A DNA stretch of 62,970 nt, the filler included, from Hausera hauseri (lineage: Eukaryota), in NCBI GenBank assembly GCA_046269625.1. It is 12 parts of 12 records of this genome, joined end to end, with 100 filler letters (N's around TTAATTAATTAA, not from the genome) between each part and the next. Parts side by side here need not be neighbours in the genome. Positions count along the whole stretch, not along the records: positions 39,462 to 48,700 come from JBJURY010421030.1; 11 more parts are not named here. One strand, given 5' to 3'. The notes under the pieces are model-generated. The model saw only the letters and a list, made by a program, of their open reading frames with translations, searched no databases and was not told the origin of the DNA. The stretch's first letter is position 1, and each line of letters begins with the position of its first letter. The translations under genes were made by a program, and so were the position numbers. Positions 495-62,568 of this stretch are shown one piece after another.

Positions 495-496
495 AT

Positions 497-4453: not shown

Positions 4454-4613
4454 CTATAGCAATGTGCGCTGGAAATAAATGTTTATAGCCGAGTAAAGCT
4501 ACGTCTGAAACCACAATGGGGCGTGATAAGTTGTAATTTACGCGTATTTTAATTTTAATTATAAATTATTTAATATATAGCATTTAACATTACTTTAATT
4601 TATTTCAATTTAG

Positions 4614-9000: not shown

Positions 9001-9206
9001 AAAGACAAACGTGAAATGAAATTGCATCCATGTTTATATAGAATTTGTTCATACCGGTTTGTTTTCATTGTAAGTAATAAACATTTACTTTGTGAGTATT
9101 GTCTCATATTACAATGATTCAAATATCTCATCACAATGGTACATACTAGATAAAATTACCCCCATGTCGTGGAAGCCAATGGCACTGTTTAGTTCCATTA
9201 TTTAAG

Positions 9207-9672: not shown

Positions 9673-9710
<38 letters not shown>

Positions 9711-9800
9711 AACTACCCGTATTTATAGTTTTTGAATAATTCAACTGACCAATACGACTAAACATGTCATGGACCTTATTTGCAGAAGGAAACAGAAATG
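9207..9800 (-). pseudogene. IAP-type RING finger protein (Maverick cargo)
   Basis: LCVLCKQRKVDTVFLMCGHLVVCHMCSTKVAQYPECKCAIMEIVHIYYE*, a C-terminal RING with the IAP/MDM2-like VFLxCGHLVxC signature. Confidence 0.75.
9673..9709. repeat. (ATT)n microsatellite
   Basis: About 12 ATT units; absent from the homologous position in contig 1. Confidence 0.9.
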
Positions 9801-10936: not shown

Positions 10937-11314
10937 TTACAAAAGCCATTGTAATGTACGCCACAATAAGCAGTAATGTCCATATAGTATAGTCATTGGA
11001 TGTTGATAATGAAGTCTATTATATTCAACACGGTATGATGCCGATGATTGTCTTTCAATTTGAGAAACTAACGATGACGGATACTAAAATCCGAGCAGAT
11101 AGAATACTCTGACAACGGTCGGATAGACGTATACAGCAATCCAATGATCGCCCGGCAAAGATGAAGTGTGTGTATTGGCAATGAAGCCGCCAGTTTGTCG
11201 TAAATCACGCGGCACACAGTACAGTGGAAACACGCCACGAAATATCGCGCATAAGGGCAATTTTCAGTAGTGACTGAGCTCAGTGGCGCTAAATGTAAAA
11301 TGTGATTCAAGCAT
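10937..11314 (-). pseudogene. Adenain-like cysteine maturation protease (Maverick PRO)
   Basis: Not in the ORF track. Read through two stops: FRGVFPL..FIANTHTSSLPGDHWIAVY..RVFYLLG..YQHPMTILYGHYCLLW. Confidence 0.88.
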
Positions 11315-11387
11315 AAAAATAGTAATCAAAATTACTTCATAGTACGACAAATAAGACGAAGAAAAGGTGAGACACAGCGGAATTTAT

Positions 11388-12620
11388 TTATACAATGACG
11401 GTTCCGTTTTTCGTTATTTCAACTTCGGCATCAAATACACCGTAAATGTACATCACGGTATACTGTTCCAACGCTTTAGCAAAGTGAATCTCCAGTCGTA
11501 GGTTTCCCTGCTGAGGTAGTTGCGTCTGTTCTACGTCATACTCCGGAGCCAAGACAAAGGTGAAGAATGGATAGATCGACTTGAACAAATACATCGATAT
11601 GCCATTGTTGACATTTTTGTTCAACAAACCCATGTTGCGTACGATAGATTGCTCATATGTGCAAACAAAATCGTTGGTCTCCAAATCATGCTTGTATATT
11701 TCAACAAAATTCGCATTCTTACCCAAACTGATGTAATTCACATTGCTATGCGTAAACGTTTCCGAATCGGTGGTATAACTGTCCGTTTGTTAAACAGTCG
11801 TTTCAAATTTAACGAGCACAAATTTCGGCAATCGCATGTCGCAAAACAGTACATCTTTGTAACACGTAGTTCAACTTTGGGTATGGTGTATAACACGAGT
11901 TCTGCGCGTTGTATCGGGTAGCAGGCATTTTGCGTTTCCAAGCCCAATTGATGTGCATTGAGCACAGATGGTTCCATCTTTACTCGATGTACGTATAATC
12001 GTGCCTCGGTAATTGTTAGTATGAGTTTGAGATTTGCAACGGCGTTTTCAAACAAAAGGCATTGTTACTGCGTTTGGGCCGAATCATGGCTTTAACACCG
12101 GGCAGTAGGTATTTCAGCTGATCGAAAAAGTCAAAGTACAGCGGTCCACACATTGTAAGTGCTTTTGATTCTTCCACCCATGCCTGACGGTTTGCTGCAG
12201 TGGCGTCATATCCTATGTTTTTCGTCAAATGAGTCGTTCCCGTGTCTGCACTGTAATTCAGAGCCGTTTCAATGAGTGCTTTGATACTGTATGGACTGGT
12301 GTTGCCTTCGATTTTGACGCTATTTAGAGTCAGTGAAACCTCCTGGAGCAGTGTGAGGAAAAGGTAATTGGCCGGTGTGACAGTGCCTGTTGAAGCGAGA
12401 ACCGTTGATGCATCCTTTTAACAATGACTTTTACATAGAGCAGCGTGTCATTAAAATCGAGATACTCTTTGTCCGATACCATAATCTGGATTTGAATGTC
12501 AATGTTATCGTCCGTTGAAAAAGAATCAACGGGGCAGATATCTTCAAATCCTGCATTGTCAATAACAACTTGTAGCGCGCCTTTGTCAAATATGCACAAT
12601 TCAGATTTTCCAGATGCCAT
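11388..12620 (-). pseudogene. Major capsid protein (double jelly-roll, Maverick PY/hexon-like)
   Basis: KSELCIFD..EYLDFNDTLLYVKV; GPLYFDFFDQLKYLLPGV; LTITEARLYVHRVK; GNLRLEIHFAKAL..YIYGVFDAEVEITKNG. Confidence 0.92.
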
Positions 12621-12635
12621 TTGTCTGTCTGTCTG

Positions 12636-12991
12636 TCAATCGAAAATCGTACGACGACGACGTTTGTTTATAGTTGAAAAGATAACTGACCTACCACGTT
12701 TTCTCAAGCCACTACCAGCAAATTGTTTTTTGACTGATTCAACGACTCCTGGTGCAGTGGTTTTTATTTCTGTCAAGGCGTGTTCCTTCAGTGATGATAA
12801 AATCGATTTGTTTTCATATAGTACATCCTGTGCTGTTTTTGTTGCCACGGCTCCAATACGCTTCAACACTGGAAATGCTAAACGTGCCAATGTACGCAAC
12901 CATCCAGATCCATACTGTTTACCAACGAAATAGGCAGTTCACCGCTTTGCTAGGGTTTACTGTAAATGGAAACGATTTCAGAATCAATCAT
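12636..12991 (-). pseudogene. Small basic core/membrane-active virion protein (QxGxG motifs, amphipathic helix, Arg-rich tail)
   Basis: MIDSEIVSIYSKP*QSGELP/YFVGKQYGSGWLRTLARLAFPVLKRIG...KQFAGSGLRKRGR..KRRRRTIFD; lies between penton and MCP. Confidence 0.75.
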
Positions 12992-14041
12992 GTTGGTTTC
13001 GACGGAAATGAAGAGTTATAGTGGTTGTGGTACCGTACGAAAATTCAATAAGGTAGCCCGCGTAAAATCGGATATTCACTTCAACATTTTATAGATGTAT
13101 ATGCTACAGGTAGGTACATAGGATAGTCGAGCTTCACAGTTACATTGTCTACAGCAGTATACTTGCTGCTTTCGGGATAAACTGCACGGAGTAGCAATAC
13201 ACGTACTCCAACGTCCAAAATCGGTTAGGTGACGTTAACGTAAATGTATATTTGACTTAATCTAGTTTTCAGTTTGGGTTTAAGTGTTGCAACATGTGCC
13301 TTCTTATTCACTTCAAACCGATGTTTTTCAAAACCCAATACCATGCCCAAAGCTTTGTCCAATGAAATGTCGACAATATCCTAAGCTAGTTCAAATTTAA
13401 TGTACCCATTTGTACCTGACTCGAAAACTTTAAATATCGCCTTGTACTTTTGATTTGAAGAAATGTTGACAGAGATATGTTACAAATTCGCAATATACAG
13501 TCTCCAATCGATACGTATGACGTTGACATCCTTTCCGCTATATAGGAAAATTTCACCGTTGCCTGGTAATATACGGGACTTAATCTTGGACTAACTCCAT
13601 ATTCACTTTTAATATGTTGACCTTTGTACTCTATTTTTGAATCAAAATTTATGTGCCATATCAGAGGAAGCAAAGGTAACAGTAAATTCAAAATCTGCCA
13701 TAAAATGTAAGTTTTGATCTAAAATAAAAACACCGATCTTGCCGTATAAATTGTAATTTGTACTGGTCGTGCAAATGGCCGATTCTCCAACTGTTATTTT
13801 ATTGTTAGTATGTGTAAGAGGACAAGAATGTGTTTTGGTTTCAGTAACAGTCTTGTTGTACGTTATTCATCCTACCTTTCAATGACACCGGTACGTAGGG
13901 AAAATTAAATTCCGTCAGTGCAACCTCCAATTTTCCAGATAAATCCAAAGGATTGTTCCAATCTACAAAGTATTCACTGGCGGAATTGTTCGGACGAGTC
14001 GTCGGACAACTGTTGCTCGGCAACACTATGTAAATACTCAT
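12984..14041 (-). pseudogene. Minor capsid protein (penton-like, PX), copy B
   Basis: N-terminus IYIVLPSNS..PNNSASEYFV..PLDLSGKLEVALTEF; C-terminus IYIYVNVT..DVGVRVLLLRAV..PMYLPV..TLHFRR. Confidence 0.88.
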
Positions 14042-14063
14042 GATCTCGATGATGATGACGACG

Positions 14064-15115
14064 TCAAAAATGTAACGTCAATTGTGTCGTTGACCCAAAC
14101 AGAAATTTAATGGGTCCCCAAAATTCATCAAGCATATACACGGAAATGCTGTGCACAATATTGATAAGTACATGGGTCTGAGAATATTAATGCGAACAGT
14201 TTCACCCGATATTTTGTACGTGTCAGAATACAGTTCGATAGAAGCCAGTAGTTGTTTACGTTCTCCACCAACGAGTACGGATTCGTTTAAGTCCGTTAAA
14301 ATGTTGATTGTATGTAATGCTCAATAGAGTTGTGGTTTCTATTTGGCAACAATAATCGTCCAACAATGTTTTGATAGAATTCGCCTTTTGAAAAACCCAG
14401 ATTCCGGGCCAATAATTCATCAAAGGCAAAATATGTAACACTGTCATGTAGTATGATCGAAATATGACCATCTGTGTTTATTTCACATGTCTTTACAGCT
14501 AATGTAGCCGTTTACTTGGCGCATTCACACAATTCCAGTTCCGTTTCCATTAATAAATCGTGTGGTATAATATGAGCGGAAGACTGATTCTGACTTAGTC
14601 CACTTTACTATAATATCGGATTCCGCATCGGATGAAAGGTCCAATTTTTCACCAATTATAACATGTCCACCAAGCCGTAGACATTTTGAATGTACATTGA
14701 CTGATTGAAAACCCCATGTCTGAGCATCAGCTATACATTTAAACTGCATTTCCATGGGATTGCGACGCATTAGTTTCATACGGTAGTTTAAAAAATAAGC
14801 ATAAACCGAAAGATTTTATTGCGAATAATTGCGAAAAATATATCGGTTATTGTGTCGGATTGTCCGCAAACGATTTGAAATAAGGTTCGTTTCTTGTCGG
14901 GTAAAGTAAATACCACTGTTCTGACGCACTGTCATTGGTGAAAATGTAAATGTGAATTCCGTCAAAACCACTTCCCAGACTCCGTGGCGTAAATCGATTG
15001 GTTTGTCCAAATGCACGGTAAACTGTTTAGCGATATTGTCGTCATTGTCGTCGTCATGTTGTGTTAATGATCTGTTACTATCAAGTACCAAGTAAATGCT
15101 GCTGCTACTGCTCAC
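14064..15115 (-). pseudogene. Minor capsid protein (penton-like, PX), copy A
   Basis: N-terminus IYLVLDSN..NIAKQFTVHLDKPIDLRHGVWEVVLTEF; C-terminus LVGGERKQLLASI..RPMYLS..ISVYMLDEF..FGSTTQLTLHF. Confidence 0.82.
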
Positions 15116-29070: not shown

Positions 29071-29624
29071 AGGTTTTATTTGTACTAGCACTCAAAATTC
29101 GATATTATAATTAGCTGGGACAGATAGGAAGTCGAATATGCGGATCTCGAATCTCAAGTCAGAGATCCCAAATTCGAATATTTTCAAGCTCGAATATCGA
29201 AAGTCGAACTAATCGAAAAATCTAACAAAGGCAATCGATTCCTGATATATTAAAACCTTTTATATATAAAAATTATTCCATGAAAATATACTATATAGAT
29301 ATAACATCAATATTTCGAATTAAGCAAAATATGTATTTAAAGCCAAATGAAGCGGAAATCAATAAATCCATAAGCAGGCGCAGATAGAAAATTATACATG
29401 CCGAATCGGCATATGATGTTAGATATTTGAATTTGAGCTTTCAAGTCGAATACTTAGCTATTAGAACTTAAATATTCGGTCAAGCAAGCACTATTCGAAG
29501 AATATGATAAAGTCATTCGAAGTCCCATATACGAGTACCTATATAGCAATCAATATTAGTGCAGTGCAGCGCATTTCGGTGTATAAAAACAAGGTTTTCC
29601 AATATGGTAAATGTATATAATAAA

Positions 29625-30521
29625 TGAAGCTATTCTCAGATGAGTTCAGAGTTGCAATCATAATCCTCAACATAGCAGCACAACGGCATACCAATATCAT
29701 AAGCTCTTATTGCATTGCATGTATGCCAAAGGACTGGACAGTGAACCATTTCTATTCAGAGGTCTAGGTGCAGCAACACATTTCATGAAGAGACTTGAAG
29801 ACATGGCTCATAAGCTTAAACACATGCTTCAGTAGCATAAGGATAATATGGGCATGTCGAAGCAGCAAGAAGAATGGCGCAAGGTAACAGCATATTACTT
29901 GTGCTCCAAATCATTCACTAAGGAGAATCATAAAGCCAAGAATCATTGCCATTTTACAGGCAAATATTGGAGCGCAGCATGCAACAACTGCAATCTTCGC
30001 TGCAAAACATGTACATTTGTGCCTGTAGTGTTCCATAATCTCAGTGGATATGATTCCCACTTCATTGTTCGGGAACTGTGAAACATTGAGGGGAACACTG
30101 ATGTTATCCCCAACAGTGAGGAGAAGTATATCACATTTACGATGCATGTTGATAAAATCTGGCTTCGCGTCATAGACAGTGTACGTTTCATGTCGTCTCT
30201 ACTTGACATTTTAGTGAAGAACCTCCCTGCAGAAGAACTCAAGGCGAAGAAGCGGTTCTTTCCCATTTTATTTGACCTCGTCAAGAGGAAAGGCGTGTTT
30301 CCTATGGCTGTATAACATCATAGGAAAACAATGGATGAGACCTCACTACCGAACAAAAAGGACTTTTACAATATCCTCTCTGATTACAATATCAGTGATG
30401 CTAACTACCAGTATGCTCAGAACGTCTGGCAGGCATTCCAATGGAGAACATTAGGGGAATATAGTGATATATATCTCCAAACCGATGTGCTGCTGCTAAC
30501 AGATGTATTTGAAAGTTTCAG
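29625..30521 (+). pseudogene. polB: Maverick pPolB exonuclease-region fragment (second family)
   Basis: NHCHFTGKYWSAACNNCNL; PVVFHNLSGYDSHFI; VIPNSEEKYITF; RKGVFP; TLGEYSDIYLQTDVLLLTDVFESF. Confidence 0.93.
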
Positions 30522-35241: not shown

Positions 35242-37180
35242 TCAGTTGGAAAATCCCAGTTTAGTTCTGCGCATTAATGCTTCATTGCCAAAACTTTTTC
35301 CAATTTTTCTCCCACAAAAATCCAAAATTTCGAGCTAATGCTCTTGCATGTCCAAATCAATTCATCAATGAACGTTCACATACTTTAATGAATAATATAG
35401 ATACATTCCTTCAGAATTTGTTTTTTCTGCCGCATGACAGTGATATTGAAGTCAGAAAATTGGTCTGTTCTGCAATTGTTTTATTGGTTGAAGTTCGAAT
35501 GGATCGATTAATCTTGAATATCAATGATGTTGTTCGATTTATGCTAATTAGAACTCAAGATAGTGATGATAATATAGCATTGGAAGCTTGCGAATTTTGT
35601 TTGTCTTTATCGGAACAGCCGGTATGTCAGAATGCATTGCATCCGTTTATCGGCGAGCTTGTCCCCGTTCTTGTTCGAGACATGAAATATTCAGATACTG
35701 ATCTGATGTTTTTTTCATACGGATATAGAAGAAGATAGCCATATTCCTGAGAAAGAAAGTGATATTCGACCCAGAACTCGTACATCATCAGCCGCTGAGG
35801 AAAGCGATGATGACGGTAAAGATAACGCTTATCTTTCCAATTGGACATTAAGAAAATGTTCCGCAGCTGCTCTTGATGTTTTAGCAAGTGTCTTTCATGA
35901 TGATTTGTTGCAAGTTCTACTCCCTATAATTAACGATACTCTGAACTCCAATGACTGGTTGATAAAAGAATCCGGTATCCTAGTTCTTGGAGCTATTGCA
36001 GAAGGTTGACCAGTTTTTATACATAAGTTCAATTTGTATGTTCAATAAAGGTTGTATGAATGGAATGCTCCAGTACTTATCAGAACTTTGTCCATTCCTC
36101 ATTCGGTGTTTAAGTGATACCAAACCGTTAGTGCGAAGTATTACTAGTTGGGCACTTAGTCGATACGTGCATTGGATTGTAAATCAGCCCCATGATTAGT
36201 ATTTTAAACTTTTGATGGAATATTTGTTGAAAAGGATTCTTGATTCAAACAAACGAGTTCAGGAAGCCGCCTGTTCGGCGTTTGCAACATTGGAAGAGGA
36301 TGCGTGTCCAGAATTGATGCCACATTTACCAAATATTCTTCAAAATCTTGTCACGGCATTTGGGAAATATTAATCTAAAAATTTGTTAATATTGTACGAT
36401 GCTACCGACACGTTAGCGGATTCTGTTGGGAATAATCTTAATAAACAGGATTATATTCAGTTGCTGATGCCTCCATTGTTCTATCAGTGGAATCAATTAA
36501 AAGATGACGGCAAAGACTTATTCCCATTGCTCGAATGTTTGTCCAGTGTAGCAACAGCGCTTGGTGATGGATTTATTCTATATTCTGAACATGTGTTTCA
36601 GCGATGCAATCGTCTCGTTGAAATGACTCTCAGGCATTTTGCGAATCAGGATGGGGTCGATGCTCCGGACAAAGATCTCATGCTCTAGCACTTGATTTAC
36701 TTAGCGGAATTACTGAAGGCCTTGGTAAAAACATCGAGCCTCGTTCGGAAAAGCAACATTATTCACTTGTTGCATCAATGCAACCAGGACGGACAACCGG
36801 AAGTCAAGTAGAGGAGTTTCACGTTGTTCGGTGATTTGACTAAAGCCTGTTTTCCATTGTTGCAACCATATACAACGGAATTCATGCAGATAATAGCAGC
36901 AAATTTAAACAGCCAGCATATTTCGGTGTCGAACAATGCCATTTTGGTTGCTGGTGAAATGGGCATGCAGCTGGGTCCTCAAATCACGATGTGTGCACCG
37001 CTACACGTCGAATATATCATAAACATCATCAATACGCATGTAACACCCAAAACCCTTCACGAGAACACCGCAATTACCATTGGTCGATTGGGTCTTGTCT
37101 TACCCGATGATATTGCTCCCCATTTGAATTTTTTCATTTGCAATTGGTGCATCTCCTTACGCAATATCCGCGATAACGAT
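35242..37180 (+). pseudogene. TNPO1: Transportin-1 (karyopherin beta-2) internal fragment, one retained ~46-nt intron
   Basis: IALEACEFCLSLSEQ; WTLRKCSAAALDVLASVF; [15 protein letters not shown]; [17 protein letters not shown]; [15 protein letters not shown]; TPKTLHENTAITIGRLG; WCISLRNIRDN. Multiple stops. Confidence 0.93.
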
Positions 37181-37799
37181 GTCTTTCTGAGTTCCAACTG
37201 ACAGACTCATATAAAGGTAATCCAACAATTGTTGCAATATATATTAATTGGTATACGAATGTTTTGATGAAAATTGCCTATAAAGATTATTTTGTTTACT
37301 CTCCGCTGTTGCAGTCATTTGCAACCGTGCCCGGTAAAGCCCAGAAACTTGCCTTTAGAGCTGACGACTACGCTGAACTACAAGAGGGGTCATCGGTTAC
37401 CCCGAAATTTTCGACCTGCTGCGGCGAGGCTAAGGTCCCGGCCGCCCACCTTGCGCCGGTGGGTCAGAAAGCGCCTTTCGCTGCCGTCCCACAACACGCC
37501 CCGGGCATATCACCTCTCCCTATTCCATCTTTCTTTTTCTAAACAACAAACATACACATACACAGAATTACACTTACATACTGCAGCCATTCATAACTTC
37601 ATCTTTACCTTACTCCACTCCTCTGACTTCTACCTCAAATACAATGGATCTGTCGTGCCTTTCGCTGAACTTCTCCAACCTTCTACAACTTGTGTCTGCT
37701 TTAACATTCACTTCCGTATCCGTGATAGCATGAATTCATCACCCACAATCTATACCACGGACAAACTCACCACACCACAGATCCCTATCATTCATTTAC

Positions 37800-39200: not shown

Positions 39201-40249
39201 ATGCAGAAATAATCTTAATCAAATTAGATGCATTTCGGTGATCACCCCGTCGATCGCGTCCAGTAAGTCAATACTAAAGCAAATGACTTCCGATTTAAAT
39301 TATTTTTACAATCATACATTATACAGAAATTTTTACTACGGTGACAAATGCGATATTGCCANNNNNNNNNNNNNNNNNNNNNNNNNNNNNNNNNNNNNNN
39401 NNNNNTTAATTAATTAANNNNNNNNNNNNNNNNNNNNNNNNNNNNNNNNNNNNNNNNNNNNTTTCTACAACTGGTGTTTACTTTTCAATGAGTAATTTCA
39501 AACGATCCAATTCTGATTCAGCAGACATACCAGAGGGCAAATATTTTCCAAGCTGAGCGATGATGTGGATGGCGTGGATGCTCACGCTGCCAACACAAGC
39601 GTCTACTTGCTTGTACGAGCCACGCTTTTTAGGCATACTTGGAGATACGGCGACAGATGAGGCACACAGACACTGCTTCAGAATAGGCAAAAGTCGAAAA
39701 TTCCATCTAAAAATACATCCGCCTAAGACTATATAACATACTAGTTTGGTGTACTCTCAAAATTCAGCATTCAAAAAAAGTTTTTAAGTCAATTCATAAT
39801 TTTTGATAGTAGATCACAAGGCTACTCTCATTTGAGATTTACATCCTAGTCTACTCCCAAATTTTGAGAGTTGACATGGACACTTGTACAGAGAAAATCA
39901 TAAATATATGCACTGAACTATGGGTGTAGCGCCGCCAAAATAAATAATACAAATTTTAATGTGTAATTTTTCATGATACCAGTTGATATATAAATACATA
40001 CCTTGTATAGAGTCGAAAAATATACCATCAATACTTTAAAAATATTGCATAATCAATTTTTAAAAACATATTACATAATATACCAAGGTCACTACACACC
40101 ATAAAGTTATACACTAACGCACATCAACTTAAAAATGACAATTATGAACTTTCGTTTACAGTAGTATTTATAGAAAATTTCTAACAATGATAAATTTTAA
40201 TACTTATCCAAGAAATATATTTGTAAATGAAATATTTTATTTTAACATT

Positions 40250-41181
40250 AATTAGTTTCCTAAATTCGTTTATTTCGCTGATTACTGAAATGGTGTATGC
40301 CTCAAAGTAAGTTATCTTTAGAGATCTTTCATTTCTAGGTTGAGGCCGCATTGCGTACAATCTCGACTTGATTATTGAGAATACCTTCTCAATAGGATTG
40401 AATTGAGGACAATACGGCGGTAAAAACAGAAATTTTATTCTGTTGGCGAGAAAAATGGCAAAATCTCAAATCACTTGTGGAAGGCACACTTATCCATGAT
40501 GAGTGGAGTATTTCGATTAAAAAGACATTTCTTGGCAAAACTTTTAAGAATGCCAGGAAAATGTCTATTGTATCCTATCTGAAAAGGTGAAATGCTTAAT
40601 TTTTTCTTCAGAAATGCGCAACACAAGTTGCATCCACGGATTACTTAACTTTTGACCAGCCGTATCCAGTGCCATCACTAATTTTGAAGCTGCTTTCATC
40701 CAAGTATAGCAGCTTCATACTTTTGTATATGCCGTCGAAGAAATTCAGCATATTTTGCTCTGTTGGTGATTGCGGCATGTCAGGCATTTCTCAAAGCGGC
40801 TTGTTACTCGTTTTCACGTGAAGCCTACTTGAATATTCTTAGAGTTGACAATGAATAATCTAATCCCTGATTTGCGAATTGTTCCCGAACAGCAATTTGC
40901 GACAGTGTGCAATCTGTTTTTCTTACATCTCTGACGACGCTTACAGCTTCTATATGTGTACAGGGTTTTCTGCCCGTTTTTTGTAAATGTGGTCAAAATT
41001 TTACCCAGAGTCTTATTTTTTTCAGAAGACCGTGTACGTATCGTTCGGATAGATCGCAGCAGTAGGCAATTATTTCTGGATCCAATACGCAACTATGCGT
41101 TCTTTTTAGTACATCAAAAGTTTTCTTCGTAACGAATTTTCCGTTCTTCCTAAACTCAGTAGGACATGTGAAGTTTGCCAT
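40250..41181 (-). mobile_element. IS630/Tc1-family transposase pseudogene
   Basis: LIMDKCAFHK and LFLPPYCPQFNPIEKVFSIIK; upstream HTH-like region. Confidence 0.75.
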
Positions 41182-41630
41182 TTTTACACAAACAATTTAC
41201 TAGTGTGTACAGCTAAATGAGTATAGAAAATAAAATGAATGCAATTATTAAATTTTGATTTCATTTGAATCGTTAATGAAACATTTAACATGTCAGATTA
41301 GCAAATACTGTAATTTACCACCAAACTGCATTGCGAAGGAGAATATGGTACAAGTGCTGACGCATTCTGTGTCCTAAAACGTTTTAAAATAAACCATGCG
41401 TAATATAGGAAAATCAGTGTGAGTCATCTATGGTTCGCTATATCACTGAAAACTATATATACATAAATCTGTTCTTAATGTCCTCTGAGTTTCACATTTT
41501 CCCTACGATTTTCATACAAGACTGTCAAATGAGGCACAAAAATTAGTGCAATTAAATTATTCGACCATAATTTACTCCTGACCATTTCCTCTATAATGGA
41601 TGAATGCACAGTTTATGTCATTTTGGTTGT

Positions 41631-42498
41631 TACGAGGGCAATTCAGAAATTAACTTCCTCTTGTTTATTTCAGAAGTACAAATATTATGAAAAGTCAGTA
41701 TTATACAAAAACGTTACACTTCTCCAAATAATCTCCAGCAGCATTTAGGCATTGATCGTACCTTGGCACAAGCTTTTGGATACTGTCGTCAAATACCTCA
41801 GCCACCAGCACATGCAGCCATTTCTGACAGACTTCCTTGGTCTCTGCATTAATGAACTTGACTTACGTTTCGTCCCCAGTCACAATTTTGTTCAATAAAT
41901 TGTCCGTTTCTTTCAGATATCGCTGAAGAAAAGTCAAGGCGTCGCCACCCTTTGATTTCTGGACGTCATAAAGCTGTTTTGGAACCCATCTTGCACAGTA
42001 CTTATGAAAATCCAATTTGTTGGTAACGATTCCGTAGAGTTGGCTTTGAAATTTGTGGAAATTCCACCGATAGTTCAGAAAGTGAAAAGATGTCTAACAC
42101 GCACCATTTGTTCGACGTCACGAACACGTTCATCAATGACAATAGAATGAAGCCCTTTTCCTCCTTCGTCATGCACATCTGTACGTCGCTCCTTAAACTT
42201 CCTGCACCGGTCCCTTGCAGCACTATTGCTCATCACAGTTTCATCATAAACAACACTCAATCGACGATGGAAACTTGCAGTATTAAGACCTGCTTGCAGA
42301 AAACGAATCACTGCATGAACTTCACAGTTGGCGGGAGATTTAATCACAGGCTCCATCAAACTTTACATAAATCGATTCAGCTTTTTAATTTAAATAAACA
42401 AATGCTTGCTAATAGATACTGCGCATGCGTAGCATCATTTTTAGAACAATTCTTTTTTAAACAACAAATCATATGTTAATTTTTGAATTGCCCTCGTA
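41631..42498 (-). mobile_element. Internally deleted mariner element with intact TIRs
   Basis: TACGAGGGCAATTCA(G/A)AAATTAAC inverted at both ends (23/24 match, TA probably the TSD); EVHAVIRFL, CARWVPKQL, IVTGDET, GIQKLVPRYDQCLN. Confidence 0.92.
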
Positions 42499-42559
42499 TT
42501 TAATTTCAATAACTTAAAAAGGGAATTTTCCAATAAAATTCATTCTACCTGATTCTTTA

Positions 42560-43010
42560 CAATCAGCTTATGTAGCATTGTTCGATGAATTCAGAAATTG
42601 GTAACTGTTTTCATTGTTTTTAAAAATGTAAATCTGTTACAGACGTTTATAGTTACTACTGTAAACAAAAGTTCATAATTGTCATTGAATGTTTGAATTA
42701 GTTCATCTATATTCTTTGTTGATATCTGCTGTTGCATGGTCTGAATAGCATTGAAAAGTCCAAGGTCGAGAACATTCAAATCAGGCCCGTTAGGAGGTTG
42801 GTATTTTAATTTTATATTCCGATCCCTTGAACACCTGCAGTTACTATATCTTCATTATCAATTGCCAAATGAGGCTTTGCGTTGTCTTGTTGGATAATAA
42901 TGGGATTCCGTTTGAAGCTGAGAGGAAACTTTTCATGAATGGCAGAATTAATATTTTCAATCATCTTAATTTCATCTCTACGGATTCTATAGCTATAGTA
43001 ACTTACCGTC
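42560..43010 (-). mobile_element. DD39D-like mariner transposase remnant
   Basis: IIIQQDNAKPH...YQPPNGPDLNVLDLGLFNAIQ. Confidence 0.75.
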
Positions 43011-46000
43011 ACATTTTTTATTATTTTATTAAGATGAGGATGCCAAAGGAAAAGAATTAAAAGAACCTCAACTTTAAGTTAAATCCTATCGTAGACAACA
43101 TTCAAATTCATGAATGTTATAAACAGATGTTATATGTTGGGGTGCCCTTACACAACTCCCTCTATATAACAATAATTGAAAATTCAATTTTATTTTTGTT
43201 ATGCAGTTAAGGATTACTCGTTCTCGAGTAACCAGATTTGTGCATTATATACTTTAAATATTTATTCAACTAACGCGCGTATTTAGTGCAGTCCTTTGCT
43301 CAATTTAAACGATTCTTGTCTTAGTTATATATTTTAAGTAATATTTTGACCCCACTGTAGTCTAATTACCCTAACTATAAGATAATTTGAACAAAAAAAT
43401 TTACTTCAGAAAAATCAAATCCTCACAGACTTACGATGTGAGTGCTTTTGTTTATAAAGAATTTGGAATCCACAAATTAAACAGTTGATTCCTCTTCAGT
43501 GTTCACAAGAATGTCGTCAGTAATTTGTTTTTCGAATTACAATGCGTTTAAGTGTTACGTTCAAGTGTTACGTATTCCGATTTGCTCGAAACTTCTGAAT
43601 TATTCGTCTAGAATTTCGAAACTTCAATGACCCTATGTCAATTCGGTTTTTACTGATTAGTTTGCTGGAAATTAGTGCATTGATCTACTTTTTTACGGTT
43701 GCTTGTATACAGTTTGTCCGATTTCATTCATGACAATTAGAATTTTTCCAACTAATTTTGGTTATTTGTGAATTATTATAAATAATTCCAATTTGATAAT
43801 AATTTCCTCACTGTACAACTCGTTTAAGTAACACATTCTTGACTGCATAATTGATAATTAATGATTTTATTACGATACAATAATTTCGAAATTCATACGT
43901 AAAATGTTTAAATTCTGTTTATACGCTAATACTATTTACAGCGTTACATTTCGATCTAGCTCGGCTAATTTTACGTCATACGCAACAAGATACGCAGGAC
44001 GTAGAGCCACTAAGCCCATATATCTCAAGACAATAATTATGCTCTATAGTACTAAGATATTCACCTGAGAACTTCGTCTTGACGAATATTAAAGTTGAGG
44101 AGCTGAAGCAAAGCTGCCTCAGCTGAGAAATGAAGAAAAATGCTCTAGCTTATATAGTAATTTAAACAAAATTAAAACAAAAATGAAAAAACTTTGACTT
44201 TGTTAAAATATTCATGATTATTTAACAATCAACAGAATTTAATGCTAATTCTGAACAAACCTAATAAATACTGATTTAACGTCAATTTTCAATTAAATAA
44301 TTCGGTAAATCTTATACTAAATATTAACATGCTAAGAAAACTTTAGTAAGGTTGTATTTTTCAAGTGTTCATTTGGGTATCGAGTAATATAAATGAATGA
44401 ATATAAATGTAATCCACCGTTTTTTGCTGACACTTCTGATAAAATTAAATACTGCAAAATTTTCCGTTTGAACTTTGTCAAGGTCGTGTGATGCGCTGGG
44501 GTGTTGCGTAGTCGATTATGCTAAACGTAAACTTTCTCGTTTCTTATTTTCGATTAAGCAAATTGACAAACTGTCCTTCACTGAAATGGGATATACTCAT
44601 TAATCTGTCATCGATTGGTGTTTCTTCGGCCAATTAGATTTATGAAGAGTTACGGAAGATTTTTCAGTCGTTAGAAATGACTTTTACTGAGCAGCGCAAG
44701 AAACAATGTGAAGGAGTAATTGGAAGGGAGGATGTGAACAGGGGGATGTTACTATGGAAACCCGTTGATCACAATCAGCGCGCCAACACCCAAACCCACC
44801 CGAAAAATGGCTGCATACGTTGGAGAGAATATTACACTTAACAACAAAACCATTATCCAGATTAATTCAAGGGATAACATCAGCAATATTAAGGGTCAAT
44901 TTAAGACACCAAGCATCAATGAGAAAAAAACGTATATAAAAACAATACAATATAAAAGACGGTAAATACCATACATGGAAAACAGACTTATTCAAACAAC
45001 GTAAAAAACCACAAACTATAGGGCTACCAAGAATAAAAGCAAAAGACAACGGGAAATTTAAACAAAAAAAAATACTAAACTCGATGAACAACCAGGAAAA
45101 TCAACAGGCGGACCAACACCATACGTAAGTCAATTAAAAACACCGGTAACTAACAAAAAACTATACACACCTAAAAACACCTGAGCAATATAGAAATCCG
45201 TCATATATAGAAATAGAAGAAAGTTCTACAGCTGGTTCTATGAAATGGCGAAAAGAACAATCAGACAAATAGGCAGAATTAGACAAAGGTCAGCCAATCA
45301 CAAGGCGACACGACAGAATACCAAAAGCAAAACAAACATCTAAATTTAAAAAAGAAATAGAAATGCAAAAAATTGACGAAAAAACACCACGATTACCACA
45401 AATAAATAAAACAGTAAACAAAAAAAGTTAATAGCCACAGGAGGAGGAAATTTCGGATAAGGAAAAGCTTTAGGAACATGTTTTGGCCTAGGAATTAAAA
45501 AACTTATGGAACACGAAATGAAAAAGACATTTAGAAAGACGGAAAAGAACAACCAATAGAAAAAAACAAGACATAATAAACACATAAAAAACATGATTCA
45601 AACTACGATATACTCAAACAAGATGAATATAACAAAAAAAAGTTATAACCCGCCGAAAGTTACGCAAATCGAACTGGAAGTTGCAAAATTGTGAAATTGC
45701 GCAAGGTGACCTTCTTGACGCAGAACATACACTTTTACCCTACTGTCTTATAATGAAATTGTATTTTATTCTTCGTTCTATTTCATACCGTGTTTCATTA
45801 TAACATCGTAAATGATCATACATGGAGCGAATAATTGAACATGTTCTGATACGGTTCTTGGTAATTTGGCTTCAGGTAAAATTTTAGATTCGTAAAGTTC
45901 ACTGCTTAAAATCGCATCAGTTAATTGTTCAAGAAGATTGATAATATTGACATCCTTTTGAATTCACTTTTAAGATGTACATTTCGACAGTATGTTAATA

Positions 46001-46302
46001 GTTGATTCACATGCATCAAACGGTTTTTCATCTGAACTTTTAGAATCCTGTAAAAACGAGAGCATGTAGAAAATTAAATTCTACACTTACACTGGTCAAC
46101 ACGCTTGTTGTTTTAACAGTTTTTGGTGTCTCAAATAGACATTTTGATGCTGATCTCTAATGATTTCGAAAATTTTCCATTACGCAAGGAGGCCTAATTG
46201 TGAAGTTTTGAAACATAATTGCAAGAACTTTGATTTTCTTACAGTACCTTATAGTATCTTTCATGATATTTTAGATTAAAGTCGTATTTTTGATGGTCAT
46301 AA

Positions 46303-47013
46303 TCAACTAACATAGTAGCAACTCACTTTATTAAAGTACAATGCACCAAGAAATGGTATGATATGCTAAAACTTGCCCAGCACGTCCAGGAAAATCCAGG
46401 CCCGGTCGCAAAATTCAACGCTGCTACCATGGCAATGCTGCCTTATTTAAATAGCAGCAGAAATGAGTGTTTCTTTGTTATTTTCTGGGCAAATAAACAT
46501 TCCATACCAGTAGAACATTCGAGTTTCAATACTAAAATGTCGCGTCAGTGTCGCAATAGCCGTGAGTTGCCAATCCATGAAGGGTATGATATAATTTTAC
46601 AATGTTAGTAAGTAAAGTATAATCTACGCAAATGCATAATGAAACAAACTAAGAACACTGCTTATAGAACTAGAAATGACCTTGAAACTGATTAAATAAA
46701 ACAAAACACAGAGGAAGCATACATTTACATAACGAGTAATGATAACGGCATGCGAAACTGCAAATAGCATGCAAAATCAGATGACTGGATATCGTCTATG
46801 TTCATAGGTATATCCAATGGTTCAGACTGCACCAAGGGAATACATACCATTATATTATCACGAATAACATTTACACCGGTATCCAGAGGAGTAGGGAAAA
46901 TCTCAGGCGAGAAACACGCGTGTCTTTTTGTGATAAAGACTTCTGACTCTGATCAAGTAGAGACGGCGAATATTCTGGAGTTACAGGCCGAACAATATGA
47001 GGAATATGCATAA
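46303..47013 (+). pseudogene. Disrupted unknown ORF(s) containing a degenerate 2A/StopGo motif
   Basis: KKWYDMLKLAQHVQENPGP at 46348-46407; downstream frames 46363-46608 and 46798-47013. Confidence 0.45.
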
Positions 47014-47051
47014 TAACAATATTGGTTTCTTGAGAAGCAATACATGCCGCC

Positions 47052-47560
47052 TTACGTTTTTTCAACTGCGAGAATGGCAGGTTGTTTTCTGCCAAATTTA
47101 CAAAACTTCTGCCACCACGACCCTACACGAAGTACTCCATATTTCGATATACAAGCTTCCCTAGTCAATAAGTCCATGCTACTAGGACAGAACTTATCTT
47201 CCGAGTTAAACGTAAAAATACATAGCACATTACAGGGAATGCTAGCTGTACCAGAGAATACGAATACTTCGATCAACGCCTTCCCTGTACTGAAGTAAAG
47301 TAAGGAAATCGTCAGTTGGAACATTAAAGACCGAAATATCGTCGAACACGCTTAAGTCATATGAAGAATCCCAATTAGTTGGTATCTTATTCATGGACTT
47401 GATAACCAATGGTTTTTTACTATGACTACGGGCAAAGCTTGTTTTACCTGTAGCAGTACTGTCGAAAATCAGCGCATTATCTATTTCCCTAAACAAGTCG
47501 AAAACGAAGGGATTCATATGACTTCATAGATAAGACCTCTTCCTGAAATTTAGTCGCAAA
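47052..47560 (-). pseudogene. Superfamily 3 helicase domain resembling CRESS-DNA virus Rep
   Basis: Walker A LIFDSTATGKTSFARSH, KPLVIK, Walker B YDLSVFDD, then after a frameshift TASIPCNVLCIFTFN (motif C). Confidence 0.72.
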
Positions 47561-47644
47561 ATCGGGATAATACGCCAAATTTATTAACAAAATCCTGGTA
47601 ATTATTCCGCCAGAAGACGTCTTTGAAGACGATGGGATGCTTAA

Positions 47645-48700
47645 GTCATTCAAAAACTAAGCCTCCATTTTCCCTAACACAATCAATAAAAGGTACTTGT
47701 TCAAACAGGCTAGTTAATTTCTCAAAATAAATCCAAGTCAAATTCGCACATGGTAAAATTTGAGATAAAGCCCAGCCGTACAGATTATTTACATCTATAT
47801 ACAAGAGACTGGTGCTTTTGTCGGTGGTAACTCTGCTTATTTACAAAAGTCAAGCCACCGCGAATACTCGACTAAAAGAACTGATACATTGCAAGGTTCT
47901 TGTATAAGCTCAATCTTACAAGGACTTGATTTCAGTGCTGTTCCCCAAGATAAAACAGGAACAGAAACGAAATTAACTGCCTCTAAACCATATCGCAACT
48001 TAACCTCTTCTAAACCGCCCAAAAACATCATCTAACAAGTATACATCGAGTTTCATGTATACCAACACGTAATCTAAAAGACAGGTACAACTGTATTTCG
48101 TCAAAGTCATTTGTGCTTCCACATAACCCGTATCACTAACTCTATCCCATTTCGGTTGCAACTTCTTAATAGACTGCAAGTCATTGAAAGATTTAGCTGC
48201 AGTATATAGAAAAATACCTTTTCCATTAATAATTTCAGAAGGAAAAGCCGATTCTGTGAATGATTAAATACCTAAGTTGGAAGCCAAAGTCTTCAATGGA
48301 GCCGGTAGAAATTGCAAAGTGTCCAGAAATTTAATAGTAACCGACTTTTTACCCAAACATCTTATCATTGCAAACAGTCAAAATTTTTTCAGTCGTTTGT
48401 GGAATAGCATTTAACTCCCAACTGCTGAATTTACTTAATGCGTGTTTTAAAATATGATGAAGATCGTATACATGCAAATTATGAAACATAACGGGTAAAT
48501 TATATCTAATCTAACGCGTCAAGTTACATTTGTTGCAAGCTGGATCTGAGAATTTACCTGTAACATGGCAGTGATCTAGAACAAAGTCAGATCCGTTTTC
48601 GTGGCAAAGGTAACAAGCTGTTACATTTTTAAACCTATACCATTCAGCAGAAGTTAACGGGATCATCGGTTTTTTAGCATTCTCGTAGAAAGGAAAAACT
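47645..48700 (-). pseudogene. polB: pPolB fragment (ExoII to motif A), truncated after motif A
   Basis: CYLCHE..VLDHCHVTGKFSDPACNKCNL; PVMFHNLHVYDLHHI; KFLDTLQFL; KGIF; YMKLDVYLL; LLYIDVNNLYGWALSQILP. Confidence 0.9.
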
Positions 48701-48800: not shown

Positions 48801-50146
48801 CTATAATCTTCCAAATCAGCATCGCACATCTGCAGGGGATAGAATTTGTCCGCCTCATCCAATCCAAAGATATTGATGGACATGTTGTTGACTTTTCCAA
48901 ATTGTCTAACTTCACCTATGAATGGAGGGAACTTGATACATCGGAAGTCATAGTTGTGCTGTACATCCTTATACAGCCAAACTCGTGAAGCATGATTTTG
49001 TTCCATTACGAGTTTTGATAGAATGGCATACATGAAACACATGTTGTCGTTATTATGGACATTGACGAATGTTCTTTTATTACCGATCCAATCAGGTAGC
49101 TGAATATATGAACTGCCCCGCATGGAAGAATACTTGTGTATATACACAATCAACATCTTAATGATTGCAAGAGTCCATCCGCTTTTCTTATCCTGGCTTT
49201 CCCCGGCTTCACGGATCAGCTTTTCATGCGCCTCTTGCATCCATTCTGCTAAATTGGTGTATTCCCATATGTGTCTATTTTTGGTCTTGAAGGCCCTATT
49301 AGATTCTTGGCCATCAGCATTGATATATGTGGCGTCCAGTTTCATATTGACCTTAAAGGCTTTGAGCTCAGCCATGTTGTCCTGAAGAATTCCCCCTGTC
49401 TCGTCTTTTGTGTTTAAGAGGAAATCTCGGAGGGTTGTTTGGTACGTTGCATCAATAAAATATCTGCGGCATTTTCTCTTATAGCTGCCGCATCAACTGG
49501 CCGCTCTCTTTAGCTTTTTGATGAAGCATCTTCTGATGCTGCTGCGCTTTTTAGTCCTGTATCGGGCCTTGCTGCCAAAGGAGGCTGTACAACGGGCTCT
49601 GCTGCCGCAGCATTCTGTTCTGCCAAAGACGTCTGTACTGTCAAAGCAGGATGCTACTCATTAAATATTACCTTCTTTGACTTTGACTAGAAGTCTGTCA
49701 AATGGGCAATACGATCTTCGTAAAACTGCATGTATTCTCCATGACATACTGCCTCACATCCTGAGCAAATATAATAGAGGATCCTATTGAATTTTATCCA
49801 TTATAGCGCCTCATAATATTATGGCACATGTGCAATACATGTATGAACTGCATCTTTAATTTTTCTTAGGCATGAAAATCATTATTGACATAGTGGTATT
49901 GAATATATGTTTTCTCTACTTGGTGAAGGAAATCAAGTGTTGTTTATGGGCATTGTAAAAGTCTTCATATTTGGTCTGGCACACAACCTCATATGTAGGG
50001 CTTATATAATACTTAGCCCTGAAGTGTTTCTGCATAATATTGTGGCAATTTTCAGGCCCGTGAATTTGAGCCAAGCACTGTTTATATAGATTGCACATCT
50101 AAAAATCAGCAAATTATTTGAGGAGCACAAATAAAAATCTCACCAT
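48801..50146 (-). pseudogene. polB: N-terminal region of Maverick pPolB, including two Cys/His repeats
   Basis: KSGWTLAIIKMLIVYIHKYSSMRGSSYIQLPDWIGNKRTFVNVHNNDNMCFMYAILS..NNMSINIFG; upstream repeats at 49660-50098. Confidence 0.85.
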
Positions 50147-58926: not shown

Positions 58927-59366
58927 ATGGTCATATTTCGATTACACTCCATGACAATGTTACATATTTTGCCTTTGATGAATTATTGGCTCGGAATCTG
59001 GGTATTTCACAACGTGAATTCTATCAAAACATTGTTGGACGATCTACTGTTGTCAAATACAAACCACAACTCTATGCAGCATTTCACCAAATCAACATTT
59101 TAATCGACTTAACCGAATCCTTACTCGTTGGTGGAAAACGTAAACAAATGCTGGCTTCTATTGAACTGGATTCTGATACGTACAAATCATCATCGGGTGA
59201 AACTGTTCACGTTGTCATGTTCAGACCCATGTATTTATCATTGTCTCACAATATTGTGCACATTATTTCCGTGTATATGTTTGATGAATTTTTGGAACCC
59301 ATTAAATTTTTGTTCGGGTCAACGACACATTTGACGTTACATTTAATACGTGGTCAACGTCAATAA
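58927..59366 (+). pseudogene. Penton-like minor capsid copy A, C-terminal half
   Basis: INILIDLTESLLVGGKRKQMLASI..RPMYLSL..ISVYMFDEFLEPIKFLFGSTTHLTLHL; homolog of 14064-14470. Confidence 0.85.
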
Positions 59367-59417
59367 TAAACAAACTGTGTCACCATCATCATTATCACCA
59401 TTATCAGCATCGAGATC

Positions 59418-60515
59418 ATGAGTATATACATGATGTTGCCGAGCAACAGTTGTCCGACGACTCGTCCGAAAAATTCAACCAGTGAATACTTTGTAGATTG
59501 AAACAATCCTTTGGATTTATCTGCTGGACAATGGGAGGTTGCACGGACGGAATTTAACTTTCCCTACGCACCGGTGACATTGAAAGGTAGTATAAAAATA
59601 ATGAATAACAAGACTGTTACTAAAACCAAAACACATTCTTGTCCTCTGACACTTACTAACAATAAAATAACTATTGGAGGATCGGCCATTTGCACGACCG
59701 AAACAGTTTTCGGTTCACACTGCAAAATTGGTGGTAATATTTTATGGGAAAATTTAGTTTTTGTGGAAAATTTTGAATTTACTGTTACCTTTGAGTCTTC
59801 TGAGATGAGGCAGAAATTTGAATTCATAAATATATAGTACAAAGGCAATCATATTAGAAGTGAAATTATAGTTGCTCCAAGATTAAGCCCCGTATATTAC
59901 CAGACAACGGTGAAATTTACCTATACAACAGGAGGGGTGTAAACGTCATACATATCAATTGGAGAAAATGTCTATTGTGAATCTGTAGCACAGCTTTGTC
60001 AACACTTTTCTTCTTCAAATCAAAAGTACAAGGCGATATTTAAAGTTTTCGAGTTAGATGCAAATGAGTACATTAAATTTGAACTGGCTAAGGATATTGT
60101 TGACATTTCATTGGACAAAGCTTTGGCTATTTTATTGGGTTTTGAAAAACAGCAATTTGAGGCATCGAAGACGGCGGTGGCGACGATGGCACATGTTATA
60201 ACACTCAAACCCAAATTGAAAACGGGACTAAGTCAAATGTACATTTACGTGAATGTTACCGAACCAATTTTGGTCAGTGGAGTACATGTACCGCTACTCC
60301 ATGCAATTTATCGGCAAAACAGCAAGTATACTGCTAACGACAATGTCACTGTCAACATCGATAATCCAATGTACCTAACTGTGGCATCTACATCTATAAA
60401 TAATGTTGAAGTGAATATCCGATGTGACGCGGGCAACCTTATTGAATTTCTGTACGGTTCCAAAACCAGTCTAACTCTTCATTTCCGTCGAATCCAACAA
60501 CAACAATCTGATTGA
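59418..60515 (+). pseudogene. Penton-like minor capsid copy B
   Basis: MSIYMMLPSNSCP..PLDLSAGQWEVARTEF...MYIYVNVTEPILVSGVHVPLLHAI..NPMYLTV..VEVNIRCDAG..TSLTLHFRR. Confidence 0.9.
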
Positions 60516-60881
60516 TTCCAAAATCGTTTCCATTTACAGTAAACCGCAGCAGGGCGGGGAACTTCCGTATTTCGTCGGTAAACAGTACGGCTCTGGATGG
60601 TTGCGTACATCGGCACGTTTAGCATTTCTGTGTTGACGCGTATCGGTGCCGTGGCAGCAAAAACAACACAGGACGTACTATATGAAAACAAATCGATTTT
60701 ACCATCACTGAAGGAACACGCCTTGTGGGAAATAAAAAGCGCCGCACCGGGAGTGGTTGAATCAGTAAAAACATAATTCGCTGGCAGTGGCTTGATGATT
60801 ATGAGAAAGCGAAAACATGCAGCATCATTGAGCTCATCAACTATAAACAAACTTCATTGCCGTCGTGCGATTTTCGATTGA
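60508..60881 (+). pseudogene. Small basic core/membrane-active virion protein
   Basis: KPQQGGELPYFVGKQYGSGWLRTSARLAF; homolog of 12636-12991. Confidence 0.75.
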
Positions 60882-60882
60882 T

Positions 60883-62117
60883 ATGGCATCTGCAAAATCT
60901 GAATTGTGTATATTTGACAAAGGCGCGATACAAGTTGTAACTGACTATGCAGCATATGAAGAAATCTACATGGTTGATTCGCTTTCAATGGACGATAACA
61001 TTGACATTCAATTTAACATTATGGCATTGGATAATAAATACCTGGATTTGAACGATACGCTATTCTATGTAAAAGTCATTGTTAAAAAGGACGCGCCAAC
61101 GGTTCTCGCTGCAACAGACACTCTCACACTGGCCAATTACTTTTTTTGCATGCTGTTCCAGGAGGCTTCACTGACTCTGAACAGCGTCAAAATCAAAGGC
61201 AATACCAGTCTATACAGTATCAACACACTTATTGAAACGGCTCTGAATTAACGTGCAGATACGAAAAGGACTCATTTGGCGAAGACCATCGGATACGATG
61301 GCACAGCGACAAACTGTCAGGCATGGGTTATAGAATCAAAACCTCTTACAATGTGTGGATTTCTGTATTTTGACTTTTTCGATCAGCCGAAATACATACT
61401 GCCCGGTGTTAAAGCCATGATTCGGCTCAAATGCAGAACAATGTTTTTTGTTTGAAAACCGCCGTTGCAAATCACAAACCCATATTGAAAATTACCAAGG
61501 CACGATTATCCCTACGTCATGTAAAGGTAGAACCATCTATGCTCATGAGACATCGATTGGGCTTGGAAACGCAAAATGCCTGTTACCCGGTACAGCGCAC
61601 AGAACTCGTCTTTTACATTATAGCGAAAGGCTCAGCTACATTTTAGAAAGATGCACTGTTTGGCGACATGCGATTGCCGAAATTTGTGCTCGATACATTT
61701 CCAACTACTGTTCAACAAACGGGCAGTTATACTACCGATTCGGAAATGTTTACCCATAGCAATGTGAATTACATCAGTTTGGGCCGGAATGCGGATTTTG
61801 TTGAGACATACAAACAAGACTTTGAGTATAATTATTATGTTTGCACATATATGCAATCTATTGTGCACAAGATGGGTATGCTCAACAAAAACATCAACAA
61901 TGACATATCGATGGATTTGTTCAAGTCCACCTATCCATTCTTTACTTTTGTCCTGGCTCCGGATTGATACATTTAGCAGACTCAACTACCTTAGCAGGGA
62001 AATATACGACTGGAGGTTCACTTTGCTAAAGCGTTGGAGCAATCTACCGTGATGTACATTTACGGTGTATTTGATGCTGAGTTTGAAATAACGAAAAACG
62101 GAATGGTCACTGTATAA
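60883..62117 (+). pseudogene. Major capsid protein (Maverick PY/hexon-like)
   Basis: MASAKSELCIFDKG..YLDLNDTLFYVKV..FDFFDQPKYILPGV..GNIRLEVHFAKALE..IYGVFDAEFEITKNG. Confidence 0.92.
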
Positions 62118-62189
62118 ATAAAATCCACTGTGTCTCACATCTTCGTATTATAAAGTAATTTATTACTACTACTATTACCATTATACTTA

Positions 62190-62568
62190 ATTCACATTTA
62201 GTTCCACCGAGGTCAATCAGTAAGGAAAACTGCTCTTGGGTGCAAAATTTCGTGGCATGTTTCTACTGGATGGTGTGCCGCGTGATTTATAATAAACTGG
62301 CGGCGGCGGCGGCGACTTTATTGTCAATACACAAACTTCATCGTTGCCGGGCGAATATTGGATTGCTGTGTAGGTCCACCATCCGACCAACGTCGTCAGA
62401 GTATTCGATCCGCTCGGATTTTACTACCCGTCATCGTTAGTTTCACAAACTGAACGACAATCATCATCATATTGTGTTGAATACAATCGATTTCATTATC
62501 AACGTCCACTGACGGTATTGTGCGGATATTATTGCTTTCTGTGGCTAACGTTACAGAGACTTGAATGA
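62190..62568 (+). pseudogene. Adenain-like cysteine protease
   Basis: FRGMFLLD..FIVNTQTSSLPGEYWIAV..RVFDPLG..YQRPLTVLCGYYC. Catalytic D, Q and C are visible here; catalytic H is visible in the other copy. Confidence 0.88.

What the first reader, a model, noticed from the sequence alone, without database searches (positions are those of the whole stretch)
46303..48700. pPolB fragment joined to a CRESS-Rep-like SF3 helicase: candidate chimeric Polinton/ssDNA-virus lineage
Seen: within one contig, a Polinton-type pPolB stops just after motif A (~47645). About 130 nt later, on the same strand, is an SF3 helicase with TGKTSFARSH / KPLVI / YDLSVFDD / ASIP..IFTFN. Knowledge: this GKTxxARS-FDD-IFTxN spacing is the CRESS Rep helicase style rather than the D5-like helicase style of dsDNA viruses. 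Bidnaviruses are the known case of a pPolB paired with an ssDNA-virus (parvoviral) SF3 helicase. Inference: this may be the fossil of an undescribed pPolB + CRESS-helicase virus or element, with the PolB C-terminus and any HUH domain lost in one deletion.
Basis: partly seen in the sequence, partly recalled or inferred. Interest (0 to 1): 0.82.

Follow-up and report, generated by a model that had tools for sequence, protein, structure and literature searches.

The report
CRESS helicase abutting decayed Polinton polymerase
In an animal genome, a broken Polinton-virus polymerase gene runs straight into a broken helicase from a small circular-DNA virus, likely a one-off insertion accident rather than the fossil of a new hybrid virus, because only the polymerase piece is highly repeated.

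Summary
Both pieces are real. A decayed Polinton-type pPolB (48700 to ~47633, minus strand) stops shortly after motif A. A decayed SF3 helicase follows on the same strand, and its only relatives among 1.84 billion proteins are CRESS Reps (4 of 4 hits). The claimed chimeric lineage is not supported. In the one run holding this DNA, the PolB part is covered about 10,000-fold deeper than the helicase, which sits at single-copy depth. So the many close PolB copies do not carry a similar helicase. Of 34 distinct pPolB virus contigs, 1 carries a Rep. There (L101) a 1,035-bp Rep circle of another clade sits inside a decayed pPolB between 12-bp direct repeats, which is an insertion and not a replication module. 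The '130-nt gap' weakly resembles the Rep linker, so the helicase is likely a truncated Rep, not a stand-alone gene as in bidnaviruses. Best reading: a dead, one-off composite in a transposon-rich region. No contig bridging the junction was seen. Residual interest: two independent cases of CRESS DNA in Polinton pPolB, the step proposed for bidnavirus origin.

The parts
47633..48700 (-). Decayed Polinton/adintovirus-type pPolB fragment: EndoVII-like zinc motif, exonuclease region and palm motif A. It is cut by the contig end upstream and by the junction downstream; motifs B and C and the thumb are absent. One copy of a highly repeated family.
   Evidence: depth; end at ~47633 by eye
47524..47632 (-). 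Junction and likely Rep central linker, in a different frame from the helicase and with one stop
   Evidence: weak: (shuffle p 0.01 in one of three frames); by-eye match to P0003/P0006
47245..47523 (-). CRESS-Rep SF3 helicase, Walker A (first Gly not conserved) to just past Walker B; single-copy depth
47052..47252 (-). CRESS-Rep helicase motif C and C-terminal part, in a second frame; the arginine-finger position is not conserved
46546..47051 (.). Single-copy DNA downstream of the Rep, unassigned. A + strand frame 46768-47298 with two adjacent stops converges on the Rep as an ambisense capsid gene would, but no match was found.

Best explanation
This is a dead composite in an animal genome, in which one copy of a highly repeated Polinton pPolB gene is joined to the helicase half of a CRESS-virus Rep gene, likely by a one-off insertion of CRESS DNA into that copy. 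Shown: the identity of both pieces, their truncation and decay, and the depth contrast. Inferred: CRESS DNA joined the resident Polinton copy at a break in the Rep linker, by microhomology or end-joining as seen cleanly in L101. The HUH half of Rep and the rest of PolB were lost at or after that event. A later deletion between two neighbouring insertions would give the same picture and cannot be told apart here. Neither piece can work: the polymerase lacks motifs B and C, the Rep lacks its nuclease, and both carry stops and frameshifts.
For: (1) Run X1 laid at >=85%: summed contig depth is 94,163-279,164 over 47778-48700, but 5.1-6.3 over 46854-47469, within the 6-11 seen in most unique-looking bins of 43466-45621. 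A 506-bp contig matches the helicase with 0 differences. (2) Of 34 distinct pPolB contigs, 1 has a Rep hit; the other 33, mostly intact elements, have none. Among 141 Rep-side loci only L116 and L117 have pPolB hits, and both are the L101 locus; 0 of the 66 from the scans with the window's Rep clade do. (3) In L101 a 1,035-bp piece (Rep tail, origin-type nonamer, HUH+SF3 Rep) splits a decayed pPolB between 12-bp direct repeats. (4) The sequence upstream of Walker A weakly matches the Rep linker, so the helicase looks like a truncated Rep. (5) The same contig holds nested Tc1/mariner-like fossils (family names by eye) and repeat-depth patches. Four other contigs of the window hold pPolB fossils, none with a Rep. 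(6) Degraded endogenous CRESS Rep fragments are common in eukaryote genomes (PMC3198968, passages; 20 in one isopod, PMC4231630, passages).
Against: No second crossover end was found: no HUH domain, origin hairpin, capsid or PolB C-terminus lies downstream in the contig, so a further loss must be assumed. Only one run was available, and it may be the source sample. Summed contig depth is not a copy number, and helicase copies under 85% identity would be missed. The 34 pPolB contigs are distant environmental relatives, not the host's family. Most Rep-side loci are only 1-7 kb long, which limits the power to see linkage. Same strand and similar decay in both pieces fit a shared history. No listed contig bridges 47520-47700 (only 8 pieces were shown).
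Confidence: 0.75

Rival explanations
1. Fossil of a real pPolB + CRESS-helicase virus or Polinton subfamily (a bidnavirus analogue), with the PolB C-terminus and any HUH domain lost in one deletion.
For: Same strand, direct contact and similar decay. The helicase is on a very long branch (2.44) within the Rep set, so its donor lineage is unsampled. Bidnaviruses show that such a pairing can arise (PMC4061559, discussion section). Adomaviruses and some parvoviruses carry CRESS-type Reps (PMC11071296, passages).
Against: The helicase is single-copy while the PolB family is highly repeated. No intact pPolB contig among the 34 carries a Rep. The 3 long (>=561 aa) helicase relatives show no Pfam polymerase hit, and one has a weak Viral_Rep hit. 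The likely linker remnant points to a whole Rep, not a stand-alone helicase.
Confidence: 0.08
2. Assembly mis-join: unique DNA carrying a CRESS fragment was joined to one path through the high-copy PolB repeat.
For: The contig ends inside the repeat. None of the 8 listed pieces spans the junction, and at 47648 all laid depth (166.5, 2 contigs) differs from the window by a small indel.
Against: At 47994 all but ~13 of 43,939 depth units carry another letter, which fits the window's PolB being one particular copy present at single-locus depth. Depth is low (5-6) and the tool warns that holes prove nothing.
Confidence: 0.1
3. The helicase belongs to a third mobile element that had already captured a CRESS helicase, and that element abuts or inserted into the PolB copy.
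For: An unchecked earlier AI note describes helicase-only capture by a LINE-like element in another genome (e1-7633506; a lead only). The minus-strand frame stays largely open for ~300 nt past the Rep end.
Against: No transposase, RT or endonuclease hit in any frame of 44000-47525. Single-copy depth argues against a mobile family.
Confidence: 0.07

Closest known systems
Endogenous CRESS-DNA virus Rep fragments (Liu et al. 2011, PMC3198968; isopod survey PMC4231630; passages read)
   Same: A truncated, degraded Rep fragment in a eukaryote genome, with stops and frameshifts and no complete genome.
   Different: Here the fragment is in direct contact with a Polinton pPolB. The words Maverick and Polinton do not occur in the main text of PMC3198968; its supplements were not seen.
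Polintons/Mavericks (adintoviruses; Starrett et al. 2021, PMC8502044, passages read)
   Same: The pPolB is colinear with intact Polinton-type pPolBs such as L090; high copy number.
   Different: Only about a quarter of the gene is left. No integrase, ATPase, capsid or terminal repeat was seen in this contig. The intact relatives checked carry an A32 ATPase but no Rep-type helicase.
Bidnaviridae (Krupovic & Koonin 2014, PMC4061559, abstract, passages and discussion read; PMC13595969, section 7 read)
   Same: pPolB together with an SF3 helicase from an ssDNA virus. Their proposed origin is an ssDNA virus integrating into a Polinton.
   Different: The bidnavirus helicase is parvoviral and a separate gene beside a complete PolB, a capsid and terminal repeats. 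Here the helicase is CRESS-type, appears to be a Rep remnant and replaces the catalytic end of PolB.
CressRep adomaviruses and parvoviruses with an auxiliary CressRep (Buck et al. 2024, PMC11071296, passages read)
   Same: A CRESS Rep in a non-CRESS genome context.
   Different: The passages read describe no CressRep paired with an adintovirus pPolB. The paper's supplementary genome maps were not seen and may hold such a case.

Membership tests
CRESS-DNA virus Rep (Cressdnaviricota) | SF3 helicase whose closest relatives are CRESS Reps | tested here: met
   4 of 4 phmmer hits are Reps, E 1e-4 to 1e-3, one named Cressdnaviricota Rep WAE42541.1; profile E 9e-10
CRESS-DNA virus Rep (Cressdnaviricota) | N-terminal HUH endonuclease | tested here: not met
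   No HUH hit anywhere in the window with two Rep profiles; PolB occupies that position
CRESS-DNA virus genome | Capsid gene and stem-loop origin with nonanucleotide | tested here: inconclusive
   Best flank match to 125 non-Rep ORFs E 0.009, and not next to the Rep; fold pLDDT 33.5; two nonamer-like words 2-4 kb away with 2-5 bp stems
Polinton/Maverick (adintovirus) | Polinton-type pPolB | tested here: met
   Profile positions 566-907 of 1298, colinear; fragment only
Polinton/Maverick (adintovirus) | Integrase, ATPase, capsid genes and terminal inverted repeats in the same element | tested here: inconclusive
   Among the 15 best matches of 43400-47900 to ORFs of 21 Polinton-type loci, all were PolB; no long inverted repeat near the junction; the contig ends inside PolB, so the upstream side cannot be seen
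Bidnaviridae | Parvovirus-derived SF3 helicase as a stand-alone gene | tested here: not met
   Relatives are CRESS Reps; no Parvo_NS1 hit; linker remnant likely
Bidnaviridae | Complete pPolB | tested here: not met
   Motifs B and C and the thumb are absent from the contig
New pPolB + CRESS-helicase lineage | Both genes linked at more than one independent locus | tested here: not met
   Helicase single-copy in run X1; the 1 linked case of 34 is another Rep clade at another site. The host assembly was not available.
Polinton/PLV D5-like SF3 helicase | Groups with D5-like helicases in a tree | not tested
   The tree held only CRESS Reps, 63 domains; 20 of 83 input rows, including one NS1-like protein, were dropped by the motif filter or as duplicates. 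Indirectly, no D5-like hit.

The most novel reading that the evidence does not exclude
The locus is the fossil of an undescribed virus or Polinton subfamily that paired a protein-primed polymerase with a CRESS-Rep helicase, a second, independent bidnavirus-like invention. A milder version, about 30% likely, is that CRESS circles integrate into Polinton DNA more often than chance, with this locus and L101 as snapshots of the step proposed for bidnavirus origin.
Probability: 0.08. Interest if true: 0.85.

Novelty: new variant of a known kind. Interest (0 to 1): 0.3.

Why it matters
As a single dead locus it matters little. It records a divergent, unsampled CRESS lineage in an animal germ line. 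With L101 it gives two unrelated examples of ssDNA-virus DNA sitting in a Polinton polymerase gene. Krupovic and Koonin proposed such an integration as the first step towards bidnaviruses (PMC4061559). I found no paper showing such a CRESS-in-Polinton locus (searches; supplements not seen). Whether it happens above chance is now a countable question.

Tried and rejected
Word-index homologue searches for longer relatives of the helicase found nothing. Direct viral-contig scans with the helicase and with the motif A piece found nothing. PDB sequence, PHROGs and Pfam gave no helicase hit. No RNA holder was listed, which says nothing about expression. No own genome is held and the Atlas gave no result for this sequence. 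A finer look at the junction in run X1 was not obtained, so bridging stays open. A single-sequence fold of the + strand frame 46768-47295 was uninformative (pLDDT 33.5) and was not searched. An 11-bp word shared by the PolB end and Walker B is treated as chance (my estimate: about 0.5 or more such words expected). An in-frame PolB-helicase fusion was rejected: it would lack polymerase motifs B and C, and the 3 long relatives have no polymerase hit. Weak Rep-profile hits in intact Polinton loci were A32 ATPases in all 5 checked. The tree placement is weakly supported (0.2-0.88 at the inner nodes) and is not used as evidence of a donor. Earlier-findings look-ups by sequence and place returned nothing.

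Full report
Setting. The window is 12 contigs of 4-9 kb joined by N spacers. The host is an animal by inference: a rhodopsin-family GPCR hit and mariner/Tc1-like fossils recognised by eye. Five contigs hold pPolB fossils and two hold what look by eye like Polinton major capsid genes. The finding is at the right end of contig 39462-48700. No host assembly was available.

The polymerase. A profile built from 14 natural pPolBs fetched from IMG/VR hits 48675-47709 on the minus strand in five colinear pieces, positions 566-907 of 1298, with four frame changes and three stops. Comparison by eye with intact L090 extends homology to ~47633, past another frame break near 47648. Motifs B and C and the thumb are not found anywhere in the contig, so this is not a simple insertion with the rest of PolB on the far side.

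The helicase. phmmer of 47245-47523(-) against 1.84 billion representatives returned 4 proteins at E<=0.001. Three carry a HUH-domain Pfam match (one weak, E 0.017) and the fourth a geminivirus Rep central-domain match; one is named Cressdnaviricota Rep. The alignment keeps Walker A, Walker B and motif C in register. A 77-sequence Rep profile gives E 9e-10 against a background of about E 2 or worse, and finds no HUH domain in the window. In a tree of 63 Rep helicase domains the window sequence falls among this Rep group on a long branch with weak support; D5-like and NS1 helicases were not in the tree. The ~110-130 nt before the helicase frame resemble the Rep central linker weakly (p 0.01 in one frame, 0.29 and 0.40 in the others; top 5% by profile). 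If so, the helicase is the stump of a whole Rep and PolB is joined to it with no spacer.

Is the pairing a lineage? One public run holds the DNA (58% of sampled words); it may be the source sample. Laid at >=85% identity, 17,266 contigs matched the 9.2-kb contig. Summed depth is 94,163-279,164 over 47778-48700 and 5.1-6.3 over 46854-47469, like the unique-looking flank. Summed depth is not a copy number, but the contrast shows many close PolB copies and no more than one close helicase. A subfamily that natively carried the helicase would have spread both, unless the repeats are all PolB-only derivatives, which I cannot exclude. Outside the host, 51 pPolB loci (34 distinct contigs) were scanned with two Rep profiles: 1 of 34 hit. 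Among 141 Rep-side loci, only two records of that same locus had pPolB. These sets are distant from the host family and many are short, so their weight is moderate.

The one linked case, L101, is informative. In an AT-rich, chromosome-like contig with an RNase P Rpr2 gene next door, a decayed pPolB is split at profile position ~503-517. The insert is 1,035 bp, bounded by a 12-bp direct repeat, and holds in order the Rep tail, a TAGTATTAC nonamer (origin motif recalled from knowledge) and a HUH+SF3 Rep. That is the permuted layout expected if a Rep-only circle recombined once at a microhomology. L116 is the same locus, identical over 10,945 bp. The Rep is of another clade and the site differs from the window's, so this is an independent event and a precedent for the mechanism, not a second member of a lineage.

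Mechanism. Shown: identities, truncations, decay, depth contrast, and the L101 anatomy. Inferred: CRESS DNA joined one resident Polinton copy in the germ line, breaking Rep in its linker, and the distal parts were lost. With so many PolB copies as targets, and a window rich in PolB-bearing contigs, one such neighbour is not surprising (inference). A deletion between two adjacent insertions gives the same result. Against this reading, the expected far end (capsid, origin, HUH, PolB C-terminus) was not found. The junction itself is unverified: none of the 8 listed pieces spans it, and all laid depth at 47648 differs from the window by a small indel.

Comparison with what is known. Degraded CRESS Rep fragments are common in eukaryote genomes (PMC3198968 and PMC4231630, passages). 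Bidnaviruses pair pPolB with a parvoviral helicase as a separate gene, and are proposed to have arisen by a parvovirus integrating into a Polinton (PMC4061559, passages and discussion). A 2026 commentary lists only that case of HUH replacement by pPolB (PMC13595969, section 7). CressRep occurs in adomaviruses and some parvoviruses (PMC11071296, passages). PMC8502044 (passages) mentions D5-like and virophage-like S3H in MELD viruses. Searches showed no paper on CRESS DNA inside a Polinton pPolB; most hits were seen only as listings, and no supplements were read.

Verdict. Observation confirmed; interpretation partly supported. One-off dead composite 0.75, mis-join 0.10, true chimeric lineage 0.08, third element 0.07. 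Interest 0.3.

Noticed in passing
L101:9400-12200 (same locus as L116, L117, L219): A 1,035-bp Rep-only CRESS circle sits inside a decayed pPolB between 12-bp direct repeats in an AT-rich eukaryote-like contig filed in IMG/VR. Tandem ~89-bp repeats resembling the circle's intergenic region (83% identical) lie upstream of the first PolB piece.
   Followed up: partly
window 1-3964 and 4065-9844: Two longer decayed Polinton pPolB copies about 72% identical to each other, reaching the C-terminal part of the profile; no DNA-level match to the PolB of the finding and no Rep nearby.
   Followed up: partly
window 10950-14471 and 58927-62555: Two decayed Polinton virion-gene blocks (hexon-like and penton-like by eye), 81% identical over 3.6 kb.
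   Followed up: no
window 29611-30521 and 48801-49495: Further pPolB fragments cut by contig ends; 48801-49495 is an N-terminal part on a different contig, next to the finding only through the spacer.
   Followed up: partly
window 40134-43100: Nested Tc1/mariner-like fossils with inverted repeats (40134-40172/42648-42686; 41631-41675/42454-42498).
   Followed up: no
window 44640-45700: A-rich, single-copy, coding-looking stretch on the + strand with no family hit.
   Followed up: partly
window 35265-37200: Apparently intronless, decayed HEAT-repeat (transportin-like by eye) gene copy, probably a processed pseudogene.
   Followed up: no
L063:9503-11874: A 58-kb metagenome contig with two converging, divergent Rep-like genes of the same helicase clade among genes with no Pfam hit.
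   Followed up: partly
L058:1704-4559: A Rep of this clade next to a PIF1-like helicase on a 6-kb contig.
   Followed up: no
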